Shown here: positions 42,378 through 60,700 of the stretch, in pieces | Layout of the letters: each line of letters starts with the position of its first letter | Numbering within the stretch: position 1 is the stretch's first letter | NCBI RefSeq assembly: GCF_963506605.1 | Contig: NC_083285.1 | Span: 38,254,001-38,318,000 of the forward strand | Origin: Zootoca vivipara | Taxonomy: Eukaryota | Direction: 5' to 3' | DNA: 64,000 nt | Program-made: the position numbers

Positions 42378-42433
<56 letters not shown>

Positions 42434-45400
42434 CCTTCATGGATCAATGCCTTGTCATGGCGAAGGGGCTTGAATAACTCGGAGAAGCTATGAGCTATGC
42501 CATGCAGGGCCACCCAAGATGGACAGGTCATAGTGGAGAGTTTTGACTAAACGTGATCCACCTGGAGAAGGAACTGGCAAGCCACTCCAGTATCCCTGCC
42601 AAGAAAACTCCATGGACAAAGACAACAGGCATATAAAAGTTATGACGCTGGAAGATGAGCCCCTCAGGTCGGAAGGCGTCCAACATGCTACTGAGGAAGA
42701 GCGGAGGACAAGTACAAGTAGATTCAGAGCTGATGAAGCGACTGGGCCAAAGCCGAAAGGATGCTCAGTTGCGGATATGCCTGGAAGCGAAAGGAAAGTC
42801 CGATGCTGTAAAGAAAAATATTGCATAGGAACCTGGAATGTAAGAACCATGAGTGGAGGTAAGCTGGATGTGGTCAAAAATGAGATGACAAGAATAAATA
42901 TCGACATCCTGGGCATCAGTGAACTAAAATGGAAGGGAATGGGCGAATTCAGTTCGGGTGACTATCATATCTACTACTGTGGGCAAGAATCCTGTAGCAG
43001 AAATGGAGTGGCCCTCATAGTCAACAAAAGAGTGGCAAAAGCTGTAATGGGATGCAATCTCAAAAATGACAGAATGATCTCGATACGAATCCAAGGCAGA
43101 CCTTTTAACATCACAGTAATCCAAGTTTATGCACCAACTACCGGTGCTGAAGAAAGTGAAATTGACCAATTCTATGAAGACCTACAACAACTTCTAGAAA
43201 TGACACCAAAGAAGGATGTTCTTCTCATTACAGGGGATTGGAATGCTAAAGTAGGGAATCAAGAGATAAAAGGAACAACTGGCAAGTTTGGCCTTGGAGT
43301 TCAAAATGAAGCAGGGCAAAGGCTAATAGAGTTCTGTCAAGAGAACAAGCTGGTCATCACAAACACTCTCTTCCAACAACACAAGAGACGACTCTACACA
43401 TGGATATCACCAAATGGGCAGCATCGAAATCAGATTGATTATATTCTCTGCAGCCAAAGATGGAGAAGCTCTATACAGTCAGCAAAAACAAGACCTGGAG
43501 CTGACTGTAACTCAGATCATCAGCTTCTTATAGCAAAATTCCAGCTTAAACTGAAGAAAGTAGGAAAAACCACTGGGCCAGTAAGATACAATCTGAATCA
43601 AATCCCTTATGAATACACAGTGGAAGTGAGGAACAGGTTTAAGGATTTAGATTTGGTGGACAGAGTGCCTGAAGAACTATGGATGGAGGCTCGTAACATT
43701 ATACAGGAGGCAGCAACGAAAACCATCCCAAGGAAAAGGAAATGCAAGAAAGCAAAATGGCTATCCAACAAGGCCTTACAAATAGCGGAGGAGAGGAGGC
43801 AAGCAAAATGCAAGGGAGATAGGGAAAGATACAGGAAACTGAATGCAGATTTCCAAAAAACAGCAAGGAGAGACAAGAGGGTCTTCTTAAATGAGCAATG
43901 CAAAGAAATAGAGGAAAACAATAGAATGGGGAAAACCAGAGATCTGTTCAAGAAAATTGGAGATATGAAAGGAACATTTCGTACAAAGATTACCATAATC
44001 AAGGACAAAAGTGGTAAGGACCTAACAGAAGCAGAAGACATCAAGAAGAGGTGGCAGGAATACACAGAGGAATTATACCAGAAAGATATGGAGGTCTCGT
44101 ACACCCCAGGTAGTGTGGTTGCTGACCTTGAGCCAGACATCTTGGAGAGTGAAGTCAAATGGGCCTTAGAAAGCACTGCTAATAACAAGGCCAGTGGAAG
44201 TGATGATATTCCAGCTGAACTATTTAAAATTTTAAAAGATGATGCTGTTAAGGTGCTACACCCAATATGCCAGCAAGTTTGGAAAACTCAGCAATGGCCA
44301 GAGGATTGGAGAAGATCAGTCTACACCCCAATTCCAAAGAAGGGCAGTGCCAAAGAATGCTCCAACTACCGCACAATTGCGCTCATTTCACACGCTAGCA
44401 AGGTTATGCTTAAAATTCTACAAGGCAGGCTTAGGCAGTATGTGGACCGAGAACTCCCAGAAGTGCAAGCTGGATTTCGAAAGGGCAGAGGAATCAGAGA
44501 CCAAATAGCAAACATGCGCTGGATTATGGAGAAAGCTAGAGAGTTCCAGAAAAACGTCTACTTCTGCTTCATTGACTATGCAAAAGCCTTCGACTGTGTC
44601 GACCACAGCAAACTATGGCAAGTTCTTAAAGAAATGGGAGTGCCTGATCACCTCATCTGTCTCCTGAGAAATCTCTATGTGGGACAAGAAGCTACAGTTA
44701 GAACTGGATATGGAACAACTGATTGGTTCAAAATTGGGAAAGGAGTACGACAAGGTTGTATATTGTCTCCCTGCTTATTTAACTTATATGCAGAATTCAT
44801 CATGCGAAAGGCTGGACTAGATGAATCCCAAGCCGGAATTAAGATTGCCGGAAGAAATATCAACAACCTCAGATATGCAGATGACACAACCTTGATGGCA
44901 GAAAGCGAGGAGGAATTAAAGAACCTTTTAATGAGGGTGAAAGAGGAGAGCGCAAAATATGGTCTGAAGCTCAACATCAAAAAAACCAAGATCATGGCCA
45001 CTGGTCCCATCACCTCCTGGCAAATAGAAGGGGAAGAAATGGAGGCAGTGAGAGATTTTACTTTCTTGGGCTCCTTGATCACTGCAGATGGTGACAGCAG
45101 TCACGAAATTAAAAGACGCCTGCTTCTTGGGAGAAAAGCAATGACAAACCTAGACAGCATCTTAAAAAGCAGAGACATCACTTTGCCGACAAAGGTCCGT
45201 ATAGTTAAAGCTATGGTTTTCCCAGTAGTGATGTATGGAAGTGAGAGCTGGACCATAAAGAAGGCTGATCGTCGAAGAATTGATGCTTTTGAATTATGGT
45301 GCTGGAGGAGACTCTTGAGAGTCCCATGGACTGCTAGAAGATCAAACCTATCCATTCTTAAGGAAATCAGCCCTGAGTGCTCCCTGGAAGGACAGATCGT

Positions 45401-57700: not shown

Positions 57701-60700
57701 CCAGGTTCCTATGCAATATTTTTCTTTACAGCATCGGACTTTCCTTTCGCTTCCAGGCATATCCGCAACTGAGCGTCCTTTCGGCTTTGGCCCAGCCGCT
57801 TCATCAGCTCTGAATCTACTTGTACTTATCCTCCGCTCTTCCTCAGTAGCATGTTGGACGCCTTCCGACCTGAGGGGCTCATCTTCCAGCGTCATAACTT
57901 TTATATGCCTGTTGTCTTTGTCCATGGAGTTTTCTTGGCAGGGATACTGGAGTGGCTTGCCAGTTCCTTCTCCAGGTGGATCACGTTTAGTCAAAACTCT
58001 CCACTATGACCTGTCCATCTTGGGTGGCCCTGCATGGCATAGCTCATAGCTTCTCTGAGTTATTCAAGCCCCTTCGCCACGACAAGGCATTGATCCATGA
58101 AGGGGAATATACACAATTAACATATTTAATTGAAAATGGAAGAGAATGGTCATTAGCGCTAGCAATGCTCCTTTAGTACTTTAGTACAAAAAAGGCTGCC
58201 CTGCAGGCTTTGTGTTGAACCACTCTGACCTAAAGCATCAGCCAGATTTGTTAGCTGTCATTAATAGAACTCCTTACTCCCATTTGATTCTAGTTGTAAC
58301 GAGCAATATGTTGAACATGTGTCCAAAAGACTTACAGAATTGATTCAATATTACTAGTTCTAGACTATGGCTTCTCCACAGTCACCAGCTATCTCTGGCT
58401 GATCTCAACTCATCTAGATTCAGAATTTAGCAGTATTTAGCTTTTTCTGTTGTGTTTTTTGGAACATACCTAGCTGTTTTTTGGAAAACAACTATCTTTT
58501 AACAAATGTGTTCAAATGAGGTAATGAATACAATATTACCAAGCCCTTTAACTCTGCAAATGTTTGTTAAATGTAAAATACATAGAAAATGCTTCTCACT
58601 AACTGTAGAACTGCTATGTTTTAGTCCAGTCAAGCTCTTGAGAGTTGTCCCAGACAATAATTCTTTCTTCTGGGCAATTTTAGTTGTTGTGGATATAAAG
58701 CACATGGGACTCAATTTTTTTGTTTAGAATAAATATTTAAAAGGGAGCATGTTTGAAAAATGAAATGAAATGAAAAGTCTATTGGTTCTTAACATATTAA
58801 GGAATCTCCAAAGCAGGTGTACAGTGCCTCCAAGCTTGACATGTTTTTTTCTAATAGGTCTCTCTTGGTGCTTGATGACATTTGGGATTCCTGGGTATTA
58901 AAATCCTTTGACAGTCATTGCCAGGTTCTTATCACCAGTAGAGATAGGAGTGTAGCAGATTCTGTAGCTGGTAAGGATTGCGTCTTCTTCCTTCTTTGAA
59001 GTATTTAAGGTTACTCATGTACAGAGTGGTTTTTTTAATTGTGTTGCCATGACTACCATTAACACTTATTAAGTGCAACAGTAATGTAGGCATTGTACAG
59101 AGGAGAAAAACTGCACTGTCCTTAAAAAATAGCTCATAATCTCTGTTATGTAGCCAGGAAGACAGAGATGTAGAAAGACAGGATCTGAGCTTTTAGTAAT
59201 ACTGCTTCTTATTGAATTACACAGAATGACCCAGTATCAGTGAGAAACACTGAAGAGCATACAAAATTTAAGAAAACTGTAAATAGTTGATTCAGACAAC
59301 TGTATTAGGGAAGAGATAGACAACAACAGAGGAAATTAAATAATAATACCTTAGATGGTACAGCATGCAACTCGTAATCTCACATAGGGCAAAAGATTAT
59401 TGCATTGCACAGGGTTGGACTAGATGATCCTTGTGGTCCCTTGCAACTTTACAATTCTATGGAATATACCATGCATATAAACCATGAACAAAAATAATTA
59501 AAATAAACAAATATAGCACATTTAAACAAGCCCAGTTAAAATTCCCATGTTGTAACTTTAAAAAATCCTAATTACAGTGTAAATTCATATGTAGCATGAA
59601 TTAATTTAAATATTTCCTTTTTTATTTGAATCTTAACTCTAAACACAGGCAATAAATATGAAGTTCCTGTGGAAAGTGGACTAACACATGAAAAATCACT
59701 TGAAATATTATCTCGGTTTGTTAATATAGAAATAACAGAACTACCAGAAAAAGCTGATTGTATTGTAAAAGAATGCAAAGGTAAGAATGCTCATTTTCTC
59801 TGCATTTTGAAACAAACCATTTTTAACTTTCATCGTATATCTGCTGTTTACTAGACTTGTGACCTCATTCATATGTCATGATAAACCTTATTACAGATTT
59901 ACTGTAAAAACAGCATTTGTTCTTCCTTTGAAAAAATGTAGGAGAAGGAAACCACAATCTCTTGCTGTTTTCAAACTGAGCATTGTGGTTTTTTTCACTT
60001 TGAACAATCTACAATCTGTATCTAAGGTTTGCTCTTGACTGACAGAGAAAACAAAGCAAAACCCACAGTTTGGACATAATGCTAAGCCCGAGGTATCATG
60101 GTTTCTTCTCCCATGTGCTAGTGCAGAGAAGCAAAGTGGGTGAGATCAATATGTGCATAGTAAACAATTAGCTACGGTTAACTGTGATGTCTAAGCTTGA
60201 CCAGTGAGCAACTCAATGTAAAAATTACATTTCCTTCACAGCATTCTCTTTGCAATTTGCTATTCTTTTATCAAAAGTTTAATTTTCATTTAGTAATTTC
60301 ACCCATTCCTGTTTTTCAGGTTCTCCTCTTGTGGTATCTTTGATAGGAGCATTATTAAGAGATTTCCCCAATCGCTGGGAATACTATCTTAAACAACTTC
60401 AAAATAAGCAATTTAAAAGAATAAGGAAGTCATCATCTTATGATTATGAAGCACTTGATGAAGCCATGTCCATAAGTGTTGAAATGTTGCCAAAAGATTT
60501 CAAAGACTATTACAGAGATCTTTCTGTCCTTCAAAAGGATGTTAAAGTGCCTTCAAAGGTAAAACCCATTTTAAAGAAACACTGGTGGTGGTTATGGAAA
60601 TTGTGACTTTTAAATCATGATAACAAATTGTGACCATGACATTTTGCAGAAAACTGATGTTGTAATGAGAGTGACATTAGAACTGACCCATCCTTGAGCA

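What the first reader, a model, noticed from the sequence alone, without database searches (positions are those of the whole stretch)
42432..58105. Two near-identical intact BovB LINEs in inverted orientation bracket the IKBIP/APAF1 shared promoter
Seen: 3.2-kb copies (about 12 of 1033 aa differ; lengths differ by one CAA unit) lie tail-to-tail around a 9.2-kb segment holding the bidirectional promoter, IKBIP's first two coding exons and APAF1's first four coding exons. Inference: recombination between them would invert the segment and swap the 5' halves of both genes. The phases do not match (IKBIP intron phase 0, APAF1 intron phase 2), so both genes would be disrupted. The APAF1 CARD plus partial NB-ARC would splice onto an IKBIP terminal exon, escaping NMD and possibly giving a truncated CARD protein. 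Both copies are antisense to their hosts, which keeps their predicted ribozymes out of the host pre-mRNAs.
Basis: partly seen in the sequence, partly recalled or inferred. Interest (0 to 1): 0.65.

Follow-up and report, generated by a model that had tools for sequence, protein, structure and literature searches.

The report
Inverted young BovB pair around IKBIP/APAF1
Two recently inserted, apparently intact copies of the BovB jumping gene sit in opposite orientation in the first introns of two back-to-back lizard genes, which is an ordinary outcome of transposon activity that could in principle, but is not shown to, flip the shared promoter segment.

Summary
Two full-length BovB (RTE-clade) LINEs lie at 42432-45655 (+) and 58105-54883 (-). 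They differ at 23 of 3223 aligned bases and 12 codons, and each has an unbroken endonuclease plus reverse-transcriptase frame. They bracket 9,228 bp that hold a CpG island, IKBIP coding exons 1-2 and APAF1 coding exons 1-4. The host is a lacertid lizard.

The copies are separate insertions. The right copy has its own 11-13 nt target-site duplication, and the left copy sits inside an (AT)n array. Both are antisense to divergent host genes, so their inverted orientation follows automatically.

The inversion itself is hypothetical: the target duplications are not swapped and exon order is normal, so this haplotype is not inverted. No ribozyme was found.

Verdict: an ordinary new example of a retrotransposon inverted-repeat pair, a known type of substrate for recombination-mediated inversion. 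Interest is low to moderate.

The parts
42432..45655 (+). Left BovB LINE. Full length, lies in IKBIP intron 2 and is antisense to IKBIP. The open frame runs 42543-45644 stop to stop, with in-frame ATGs at 42612 and 42642. The tail is (AAC)4.
54883..58105 (-). Right BovB LINE. Full length, lies in the APAF1 intron after coding exon 4 and is antisense to APAF1. The open frame runs 57994-54893, with in-frame ATGs at 57925 and 57895. The tail is (AAC)3 plus AA.
42379..42431 (.). (AT)26.5 array directly 5' of the left copy. It is one half of the microsatellite target.
45656..45707 (.). (AT)26 array directly 3' of the left copy. It is the other half of the microsatellite target.
58106..58116 (-). 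Target-site duplication of the right copy on its 5' side. It reads TTGTGTATATT on the minus strand, or 13 nt if the preceding AA is counted.
54872..54882 (-). Target-site duplication of the right copy on its 3' side, with the same 11 nt.
45858..45975 (-). IKBIP coding exon 2. It ends in phase 0 and is 39 of 39 identical to Podarcis IKBIP residues 58-96.
47465..47634 (-). IKBIP coding exon 1, with the ATG at 47634. It is 52 of 56 identical to Podarcis IKBIP residues 1-56.
40939..41757 (-). IKBIP terminal exon 3a. It lies outside the bracketed segment and has a phase 0 acceptor. It is 254 of 272 identical to Podarcis IKBIP residues 97-368.
38202..38957 (-). IKBIP alternative terminal exon 3b, a coiled-coil exon with acceptor ..ttag|TGT.
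48201..49100 (.). CpG island between the two genes, with GC 0.63 and CpG observed/expected 0.84 (0.38 for the whole window). It is the presumed bidirectional promoter.
50538..50675 (+). APAF1 coding exon 1, holding the ATG and the first half of the CARD domain.
52468..52657 (+). APAF1 coding exon 2, holding the second half of the CARD domain.
53178..53375 (+). APAF1 coding exon 3, holding the start of NB-ARC and the P-loop GMAGCGKS.
54192..54375 (+). APAF1 coding exon 4. It matches NB-ARC profile positions 49-97 and ends in phase 2.
58858..58970 (+). APAF1 coding exon 5, lying beyond the right copy. It matches NB-ARC profile positions 103-144 and contains LVLDD.

Best explanation
These are two separate, recent retrotransposition events of one young BovB (RTE-clade LINE) subfamily in a lacertid lizard genome. 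One copy landed in an (AT)n microsatellite in IKBIP intron 2. The other landed in an AT-rich site in the APAF1 intron after coding exon 4. Each is full length, keeps an unbroken endonuclease plus reverse-transcriptase frame, and is antisense to its host gene, the orientation usually tolerated for intronic LINEs. Because IKBIP and APAF1 are transcribed divergently from a common CpG island, two antisense insertions are necessarily inverted relative to each other with their 3' ends facing inward. The result is a 3.2-kb inverted repeat of 99.3% identity with a 9.2-kb spacer. By size, identity and spacing it is a credible substrate for non-allelic homologous recombination, that is, retrotransposon recombination-mediated inversion. 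The haplotype in the window is in the original, un-inverted state, and nothing in the sequence shows that the arms have ever exchanged. Shown here: the copies, their ends, their independence, the gene model, the intron phases and the frame consequences. Inferred only: that recombination can or does happen, the fate of chimeric transcripts, and promoter sharing.
For: Repeat and identity: (23 of 3223 bases differ; the longest identical run is 887 nt).

BovB identity: Exo_endo_phos at residues 96-317 and RVT_1 at 597-843 in both copies. The best homologues are Podarcis muralis (93%, 998 aa, cluster of 178 members) and Zootoca vivipara (98%, partial). Bos copies are 75-79% identical, and Varanus entries named 'Craniofacial development protein 2' are 77% (797 proteins at E<=1e-50 among 7525 candidates). 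The canonical BovB length of 3.2 kb is stated in PMC6036668 (passages). The catalytic boxes GDWN, SDH, FIDYAKAFD and YADD align with those of human L1 ORF2p.

Independence of the insertions: the flanks are unrelated. The right copy has its own 11-13 nt duplication, and the left copy is flanked by (AT)26 on each side. At sites 104, 105, 545 and 979 the two copies carry states that are each found in other lacertid copies.

Genes: per-exon Pfam finds CARD, NB-ARC and APAF-1-like WHD. The three IKBIP exons map to Podarcis IKBIP residues 1-56, 58-96 and 97-368.

Un-inverted state: the flanking duplications match within each copy, and APAF1 exons c5-c8 continue on the + strand after the right copy.

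Substrate plausibility: 49 of 252 human-chimpanzee inversions lie between inverted L1 or Alu copies, 21 of them L1, spanning 166 bp to 81 kb (PMC2603318, abstract and sections 6-7). Separately, 22 predicted human inversions of 5.1-226 kb are mediated by inverted repeats of 1.6-24 kb, and 11 of 16 that could be analysed show signs of recurrence (PMC3961182, passages).
Against: The target duplication of the left copy cannot be delimited, because both flanks are pure (AT)n. For that copy the evidence for a clean insertion is therefore weaker. Only one haplotype was seen, so I cannot show that both insertions coexist on one chromosome in nature, nor when each arose. The differences are unevenly spread (21 of 23 in the first 2160 nt), which could mean the arms have exchanged sequence. 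The antisense bias of intronic LINEs is recalled knowledge and was not measured in this genome. Genome-wide BovB copy number is unknown here, so I could not compute how often such close pairs arise by chance.
Confidence: 0.85

Rival explanations
1. The arms have already interacted. Gene conversion between the two copies homogenised the 3' third of the element, which would show that the pair pairs and recombines in the germ line.
For: The longest identical run is 887 nt (element positions 2161-3047). Only 1,414 of 100,000 random placements of 23 differences give a run that long. There are also no synonymous differences in that stretch.
Against: The breakpoints were chosen after looking at the data. 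The same protein region (codons 684-978) is also the most conserved between the left copy and three Podarcis copies: 8, 10 and 13 differences of 295 residues. The EN domain and linker show about 8% and the N-terminus 14%. Constraint on the source lineages therefore explains much of the pattern. No third copy from the same genome was available to identify shared private mutations.
Confidence: 0.12
2. The pair is an assembly artefact. The two insertions could lie on different haplotypes stitched into one contig, or one copy could be misplaced.
For: Near-identical 3-kb repeats are a classic source of misjoins. Only one assembled sequence was seen.
Against: The window has no N. Each copy is embedded in unique flanks with correct host-gene exons on both sides and its own target duplication or microsatellite halves. 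The copies differ at 23 sites, so they are not one copy placed twice.
Confidence: 0.05
3. The pair arose as a local inverted duplication, or as parent and daughter (one copy retrotransposed from the other), rather than from distant source copies.
For: The two are the only BovB sequences in 64 kb and lie 9.2 kb apart. Both are full length and start at the same base.
Against: No flanking sequence is shared beyond the element, which rules out a segmental duplication. At codons 104/105 and 545 the left copy shares S, G and T with a Zootoca copy. At 104 and 545 the right copy shares N and I with Podarcis copies. This fits two slightly different source copies, although homoplasy cannot be excluded. 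A parent-daughter relation cannot be excluded outright.
Confidence: 0.08
4. The pair is a functional, selected arrangement, such as a recombination switch or an insulator around the shared promoter, with 5' ribozymes kept out of host transcripts by selection on orientation.
For: The placement around the CpG island is symmetrical and both copies are antisense. HDV-like ribozymes are reported in some RTE elements (PMC6765202, passages).
Against: No ribozyme was detected: none at Rfam gathering threshold and 0 of 18 weak matches at E<=10 is a ribozyme family, with 14 of the 18 lying on the AT arrays. The HDV-like descriptor gives only a 6-bp P1 and 0 of 2 P1.1 pairs in both copies, and the fold z-score is -1.06. 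The insertions are young (0.7% divergence), an inversion would destroy both genes, and orientation is explained by the general antisense bias.
Confidence: 0.02

Closest known systems
Retrotransposon recombination-mediated inversion (RRMI) between inverted L1 or Alu copies in primates (Lee et al. 2008, PMC2603318)
   Same: Two copies of one young LINE subfamily lie in opposite orientation on one chromosome a few kb apart. Arm length, identity and spacer fall inside the range of L1-mediated events: RRMI loci span 166 bp to 81 kb, more than half of L1 events exceed 10 kb, and young high-identity subfamilies are over-represented.
   Different: Here only the substrate is seen. RRMI loci are recognised by chimeric elements at the two breakpoints. 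In this window both copies keep their own flanks, so no event has happened on this haplotype. The element is BovB in a lizard, not L1 or Alu in a primate.
Polymorphic, recurrent human inversions mediated by inverted repeats (Aguado et al. 2014, PMC3961182), and the F8 intron-1 and intron-22 inversions (recalled)
   Same: The inverted repeats are 1.6-24 kb and flank 5.1-226 kb. Breakpoints fall in stretches of highest identity, for example 782 bp at 99.9%. The present pair has 3.2-kb arms, a 9.2-kb spacer and an 887-nt identical stretch.
   Different: Those inversions are mostly neutral or tolerated and reach measurable frequencies. The inversion proposed here would truncate APAF1 and IKBIP, and so should stay very rare. 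None has been observed.
BovB (RTE-clade) LINEs of squamates and ruminants (Ivancevic et al. 2018, PMC6036668)
   Same: The element is 3.2 kb with a single long frame encoding an AP-type endonuclease and a reverse transcriptase. It has no poly(A) and a short tandem-repeat tail. It is 75-79% identical in protein to Bos copies and 93-98% identical to lacertid copies.
   Different: Nothing structural differs. These two copies are unusually young and unbroken.
RTE, R2 and L1Tc elements with a 5' HDV-like self-cleaving ribozyme (review PMC6765202; the primary paper is recalled and was not read)
   Same: The clade is the same (RTE). Both copies start at exactly the same base, and bases 1-7 can pair with 31-37.
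   Different: There is no Rfam match. No P1.1 helix is possible, the first base is C rather than the usual G of a G-U wobble (a recalled feature), and the predicted folding is unexceptional. I do not file it as a ribozyme-bearing element.

Membership tests
BovB / RTE-clade LINE | Full-length element of about 3.2 kb | tested here: met
   The copies are 3,224 and 3,223 nt and share the same first base. The 3.2 kb canonical length is stated in PMC6036668.
BovB / RTE-clade LINE | One long frame with an N-terminal AP-type endonuclease followed by a reverse transcriptase, with catalytic boxes present | tested here: met
   Pfam finds Exo_endo_phos (profile 1-216 of 225) and RVT_1 (1-202 of 205) in both copies. 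GDWN, SDH and YADD align with L1 ORF2p GDFN, SDH and FADD.
BovB / RTE-clade LINE | Closest relatives are recognised BovB copies of squamates and ruminants | tested here: met
   Hits are Podarcis 93%, Zootoca 98% (partial), Varanus 'Craniofacial development protein 2' 77% and Bos 75-79%. That this naming marks BovB-derived sequence is recalled.
BovB / RTE-clade LINE | 3' end without poly(A), ending in a short tandem repeat; target-site duplication present | tested here: met
   The tail is (AAC)3-4. The right copy has an 11-13 nt duplication; the left copy's duplication is hidden in (AT)n. The criterion itself is recalled.
Substrate of inverted-repeat NAHR / RRMI | Two homologous copies in inverted orientation on one molecule, with high identity and a long uninterrupted identical stretch | tested here: met
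   Identity is 99.29% over 3223 nt, the longest identical run is 887 nt and the spacer is 9228 nt.
Completed RRMI / NAHR inversion | Chimeric elements with swapped flanks or target duplications, and reversed order of the enclosed segment | tested here: not met
   Each copy has matching flanks. IKBIP exons 1, 2 and 3a are all on the - strand, and APAF1 c1-c8 are all on the + strand in order.
Completed RRMI / NAHR inversion | Both orientations present in the population or in germ cells | not testable with these tools
   No reads or other genomes of this species could be reached. Genome contigs holds only bacteria and archaea.
HDV-like self-cleaving ribozyme at a LINE 5' end | Match to a curated ribozyme covariance model | tested here: not met
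   There is no ribozyme family at gathering threshold in the whole window. At E<=10 in 42300-45800, 0 of 18 matches is a ribozyme family.
HDV-like self-cleaving ribozyme at a LINE 5' end | Nested double pseudoknot (P1, P1.1, P2, P3, P4) starting at the cleavage site, with a C in J4/2 | tested here: not met
   My own descriptor, anchored at base 1, gives 2 solutions per copy. Both have a 6-bp P1, a 9-nt L3 and 0 of 2 P1.1 pairs. By eye, a 7-bp P1 (1-7 with 31-37), P3 (18-20 with 28-30) and P2 (9-15 with 123-129) are possible, but again without P1.1. The descriptor is my own and is cruder than published ones.
HDV-like self-cleaving ribozyme at a LINE 5' end | Self-cleavage in vitro | not testable with these tools
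   This is a bench assay.
Bidirectional (shared) promoter | Divergent genes with a CpG island between their first exons | tested here: met
   The IKBIP ATG is at 47634 (-) and the APAF1 ATG at 50538 (+). The island at 48201-49100 has GC 0.63 and observed/expected 0.84.
Bidirectional (shared) promoter | Transcription start sites less than about 1 kb apart | not testable with these tools
   There are no transcript data. In human, IKBIP is said to lie within 0.5 kb upstream of APAF1 (PMC10349435, passage).

The most novel reading that the evidence does not exclude
The pair is a live recombination hotspot in this lizard. Recurrent germ-line (or somatic) inversion between the two BovB copies would keep generating a recessive-lethal allele that is null for both APAF1 and IKBIP. 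That allele would express a stable protein of 236 APAF1 residues (the CARD domain plus the P-loop part of the nucleotide-binding domain) followed by a frameshifted tail of 5 or 18 codons. Such a protein could act as a decoy for caspase-9. The 887-nt identical stretch would then be the footprint of past exchange between the arms.
Probability: 0.06. Interest if true: 0.55.

Novelty: new member of a known kind. Interest (0 to 1): 0.22.

Why it matters
If both copies really share a haplotype, the locus is a clean natural test case. A short inverted repeat of known age and exact sequence brackets a promoter and the 5' exons of an essential apoptosis gene. Inversion junctions could be counted directly in sperm or blood DNA, which would give a rate of LINE-mediated inversion in a reptile, where such rates are unmeasured. 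The locus also shows that this BovB subfamily was active very recently in lacertids and that full-length copies are tolerated within a few hundred bases of exons. Beyond that, it is an ordinary consequence of LINE activity, not a new mechanism.

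Tried and rejected
1. Ribozymes. Rfam at gathering threshold on the whole window found only SNORA53. Rfam at E<=10 on 42300-45800 gave 18 weak matches. Fourteen lie on the AT arrays, none is a ribozyme family and all are below gathering score. RNAfold of the first 144 nt gave z = -1.06, with 37 of 200 shuffles folding at least as well. My own HDV-like descriptor found no P1.1 helix. 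As a control, the partial motif (7-bp P1, P3, P2 of 6 bp or more) occurred at 33 start positions in a 12-kb control stretch and in 2 of 2000 shuffles. I rejected the ribozyme claim as unsupported, which does not disprove it.

2. Gene conversion. The uneven spread of differences looked suggestive (1,414 of 100,000 random placements). It is largely matched by regional conservation among lacertid copies (same call), so I left it as a minor rival.

3. Other BovB fragments in the window, to gauge local density and age: none found.

4. Literature. A search for 'BovB' plus 'APAF1' returned 4 papers (3 listed), none about this locus (listing only). 'BovB' plus 'ribozyme' returned 11 papers (10 listed); none has BovB in its title or abstract, and one Schistosoma small-RNA paper has 'ribozyme' in its abstract (listing only). 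A search for BovB together with lacertid names found no dedicated study (listing only).

Presence or absence of the insertions in relatives therefore stayed unchecked.

6. Supplementary tables were closed. These include the per-species BovB counts in PMC6036668 and the locus list in PMC2603318. They might give BovB copy numbers that bear on how often close pairs are expected.

Exons were handled one at a time.

Full report
WHAT IS THERE

The repeat finder reports a single long inverted pair in 40-60 kb: arms 42426-45654 and 54883-58111, 3229 nt, 99% complementary, 9228 nt apart. Aligned without gaps they differ at 23 of 3223 positions (99.29% identity). Of these, 21 are transitions and 2 transversions, and 9 lie at CpG sites. 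Two fall in the 5' UTR, 9 are synonymous and 12 non-synonymous.

The 1033-codon frame is read from stop to stop. In-frame ATGs are at codons 24 and 34. A 998-aa Podarcis homologue starts at the codon-34 position, so the protein is about 1000-1010 aa. The tail is (AAC)4 in the left copy and (AAC)3 plus AA in the right. The window has no N. No further BovB fragment exists in the 64 kb by blastn or tblastn.

WHAT THE ELEMENT IS

- Both frames carry Exo_endo_phos (residues 96-317) and RVT_1 (597-843) almost end to end on the Pfam profiles.
- The nearest solved relative is human L1 ORF2p (E = 7.6e-38). The boxes GDWN, SDH, FIDYAKAFD and YADD align to its catalytic boxes.
- In the large protein collection, 797 proteins reach E<=1e-50 among 7525 candidates. 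The best are Podarcis muralis (93% over 97% of the query, in a cluster of 178 members) and Zootoca vivipara (98%, partial).
- Varanus entries named 'Craniofacial development protein 2' reach 77%, and Bos copies 75-79%.
- The length of 3.2 kb is the canonical BovB length (PMC6036668, passages).

I file the element as a BovB/RTE LINE of a lacertid lizard. I did not try to name the species.

THE TWO COPIES ARE SEPARATE INSERTIONS

The flanks are unrelated. The right copy is bracketed by the same 11 nt on both sides, or 13 nt if two A's of the tail are counted. The left copy sits between (AT)26.5 at 42379-42431 and (AT)26 at 45656-45707. It therefore landed in a microsatellite, and its duplication cannot be delimited.

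I polarised the 12 amino-acid differences against named Podarcis, Zootoca, Varanus and Bos copies:
- About five states are private to the left copy (67, 74, 595, 651 and probably 410).
- Three are private to the right copy among the lacertid copies (56, 392, 590); the state at 590 recurs in the Varanus and Bos copies.
- Four sites (104, 105, 545, 979) have each state also present in other copies.

This fits two slightly different source copies rather than one copy duplicated.

At 0.7% total divergence, part of which predates insertion, the insertions are young. With squamate neutral rates recalled as roughly 1e-9 per site per year, that means at most a few million years. This is a rough figure based on recalled rates.

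THE HOST GENES

APAF1 (+ strand):
- c1 50538-50675 and c2 52468-52657 hit CARD, covering profile positions 3-41 and 43-84.
- c3 53178-53375 and c4 54192-54375 hit NB-ARC, covering 5-44 and 49-97.
- c5 58858-58970 continues NB-ARC at 103-144.
- Later exons hit NB-ARC 190-248 and the APAF-1-like winged-helix domain (E = 2.6e-26).
- Sources.

IKBIP (- strand):
- c1 47634-47465, c2 45975-45858 and terminal exon 3a 41757-40939 align to residues 1-56 (52 of 56 identical), 58-96 (39 of 39) and 97-368 (254 of 272) of Podarcis muralis IKBIP isoform X1.
- A second terminal exon, 3b, lies at 38957-38202.

A CpG island at 48201-49100 lies between the genes. Its GC is 0.63 and its CpG observed/expected ratio is 0.84, against 0.38 for the window. 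That it is a shared promoter is an inference. In human, IKBIP is described as lying within 0.5 kb upstream of APAF1 (PMC10349435, passage). The primary paper, Hofer-Warbinek 2004, was seen only as a reference.

The wider neighbourhood is TMPO (Pfam Thymopoietin), SLC25A3 with SNORA53 in an intron, then IKBIP and APAF1.

ORIENTATION

The left copy (+) lies in IKBIP (-) intron 2. The right copy (-) lies in the APAF1 (+) intron after c4. Both are antisense. Since the genes diverge from a common island, two antisense insertions must be inverted relative to each other with tails facing inward. The striking layout therefore needs no explanation beyond the usual tolerance for antisense intronic LINEs, which is recalled and was not measured here.

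The two arms never occur in the same host pre-mRNA, and both host transcripts carry the same (antisense) polarity of BovB. No host-transcript duplex is therefore expected.

THE INVERSION IDEA

- IKBIP intron 2 is phase 0 and the APAF1 intron is phase 2.
- Read from single exons, APAF1 c4 joined to IKBIP 3a would give Ser plus 17 codons and then a stop. Joined to 3b it would give Ser plus 4 codons and then a stop. Both stops lie in a last exon, so escape from nonsense-mediated decay is the textbook expectation.
- IKBIP c2 joined to APAF1 c5 stops after 5 codons, which predicts decay.

The APAF1 part would be 236 residues (710 nt). It would hold the CARD domain and the P-loop but not the LVLDD stretch of c5, so it could not form a working nucleotide-binding domain (inference).

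The pair is a credible substrate, as the literature shows:
- Lee et al. found 49 of 252 human-chimpanzee inversions between inverted L1 or Alu copies. Of these, 21 involve L1, sizes run from 166 bp to 81 kb, and young high-identity subfamilies are favoured (PMC2603318, abstract and sections 6-7).
- Aguado et al. studied 22 predicted inversions of 5.1-226 kb mediated by inverted repeats of 1.6-24 kb. Eleven of 16 that could be analysed showed signs of recurrence (PMC3961182, passages).

But this is only a possibility. On this haplotype each copy keeps its own flanks, and the exons of both genes are in normal order and strand. No inversion has occurred here, or an even number has.

The one hint of contact between the arms is an 887-nt identical run (1,414 of 100,000 random placements reach it). 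The same region is also the most conserved part among lacertid copies: 8-13 differences of 295 residues, against about 8% in the EN domain and linker and 14% at the N-terminus. I therefore give gene conversion low weight.

An inverted allele would be null for APAF1. By recalled mouse data, homozygous loss is lethal, so such an allele would stay very rare. Ordinary sequencing depth would not find it.

RIBOZYMES

HDV-like ribozymes are reported for some RTEs (PMC6765202, passages), but I found none here:
- Rfam shows only SNORA53 at gathering threshold.
- At E<=10, 0 of 18 weak matches is a ribozyme family, and 14 of the 18 lie on the AT arrays.
- The 5' 144 nt fold with z = -1.06.
- A descriptor anchored at base 1 finds helices P1, P2 and P3 but 0 of 2 P1.1 pairs. 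Comparable partial motifs occur 33 times in a 12-kb control.
- No paper in the searched library has BovB in its title or abstract together with a ribozyme (listing only).

VERDICT

What is really there is a pair of young, independently inserted, apparently intact BovB copies in a lacertid lizard. Their inverted layout follows from antisense insertion into two divergent genes. The pair is a plausible but unproven substrate for a gene-breaking inversion, and the ribozyme remark is unsupported. It is a new example of a known kind, of low to moderate interest.

WHAT STAYED UNCHECKED

- Whether both insertions share a haplotype in nature.
- Their presence in related species.
- Genome-wide copy number.
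- Transcription start sites.
- Supplementary tables of the cited papers (closed).
- The closed collections (metagenome contigs, viral contigs), which would not hold this locus in any case.

Noticed in passing
window 42379-42431 and 45656-45707: The left copy is flanked by two pure (AT)n arrays of nearly equal length, 53 and 52 nt. Either it split a roughly 100-nt microsatellite in the middle, or an unusually long duplication of about 52 nt made of the whole array was generated.
   Followed up: partly
window 44592-45478 and its mirror in the right copy: An 887-nt stretch is perfectly identical between the copies, and 21 of the 23 differences lie in the first 2160 nt. This is mildly unlikely under uniform placement (1,414 of 100,000). 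The region is also the most conserved one among lacertid copies.
   Followed up: partly
window 41758-45857 and 54376-58857: Both host introns consist mostly of the insertion. IKBIP intron 2 is 4,100 nt, of which 3,329 nt are BovB plus AT arrays, leaving about 770 nt. The APAF1 intron is 4,482 nt, of which about 3,234 nt are BovB plus its duplication. The left copy's AT array ends only 150 nt from the IKBIP exon 2 donor.
   Followed up: partly
window 38202-38957 (-): A second, alternative IKBIP terminal exon (251 codons, coiled coil) lies 2 kb beyond exon 3a. Any chimeric transcript would therefore have two possible 3' ends.
   Followed up: partly
window 47465-47634 versus 48201-49100: The IKBIP ATG exon lies about 570 nt outside the CpG island. 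IKBIP therefore has either a long 5' UTR or an upstream non-coding exon. The APAF1 ATG exon (50538) is 1.4 kb from the island, which implies a non-coding first exon.
   Followed up: no
window 33288-33533 (+); 30377-35771 (+); 4600-4968 (+): SNORA53 (179.5 bits, full length) sits in an intron of a gene whose exons read like the phosphate carrier SLC25A3 (named by eye only, not run through Pfam). A TMPO exon (Pfam Thymopoietin, E = 2.3e-28) lies upstream with its own CpG-rich region at 4-6 kb. The order TMPO-SLC25A3-IKBIP-APAF1 matches the human order as I recall it.
   Followed up: partly
window 19795-20607 (+): A 270-codon open frame has no Pfam match. By eye it has a Cys-rich stretch followed by a GIY-YIG-like motif, so it may be the endonuclease end of a Penelope-like element. 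This is unverified.
   Followed up: partly
window 6799-7131 (+) and 60928-61122 (-): The same stretch of about 40 codons (..SVYEFSVYERRGPIWNGLIHFPLLS.GKFASVYERFSL) appears in open frames at both places, in opposite orientation. It is another interspersed repeat family, one copy of which lies in an APAF1 intron.
   Followed up: no
one search hit list (not in the window): Proteins about 79% identical to this BovB are deposited under Staphylococcus aureus, Sinisalibacter lacisalsi and Babesia ovata, on contigs of 2-3 kb. These are most likely ruminant DNA contamination in those assemblies.
   Followed up: no
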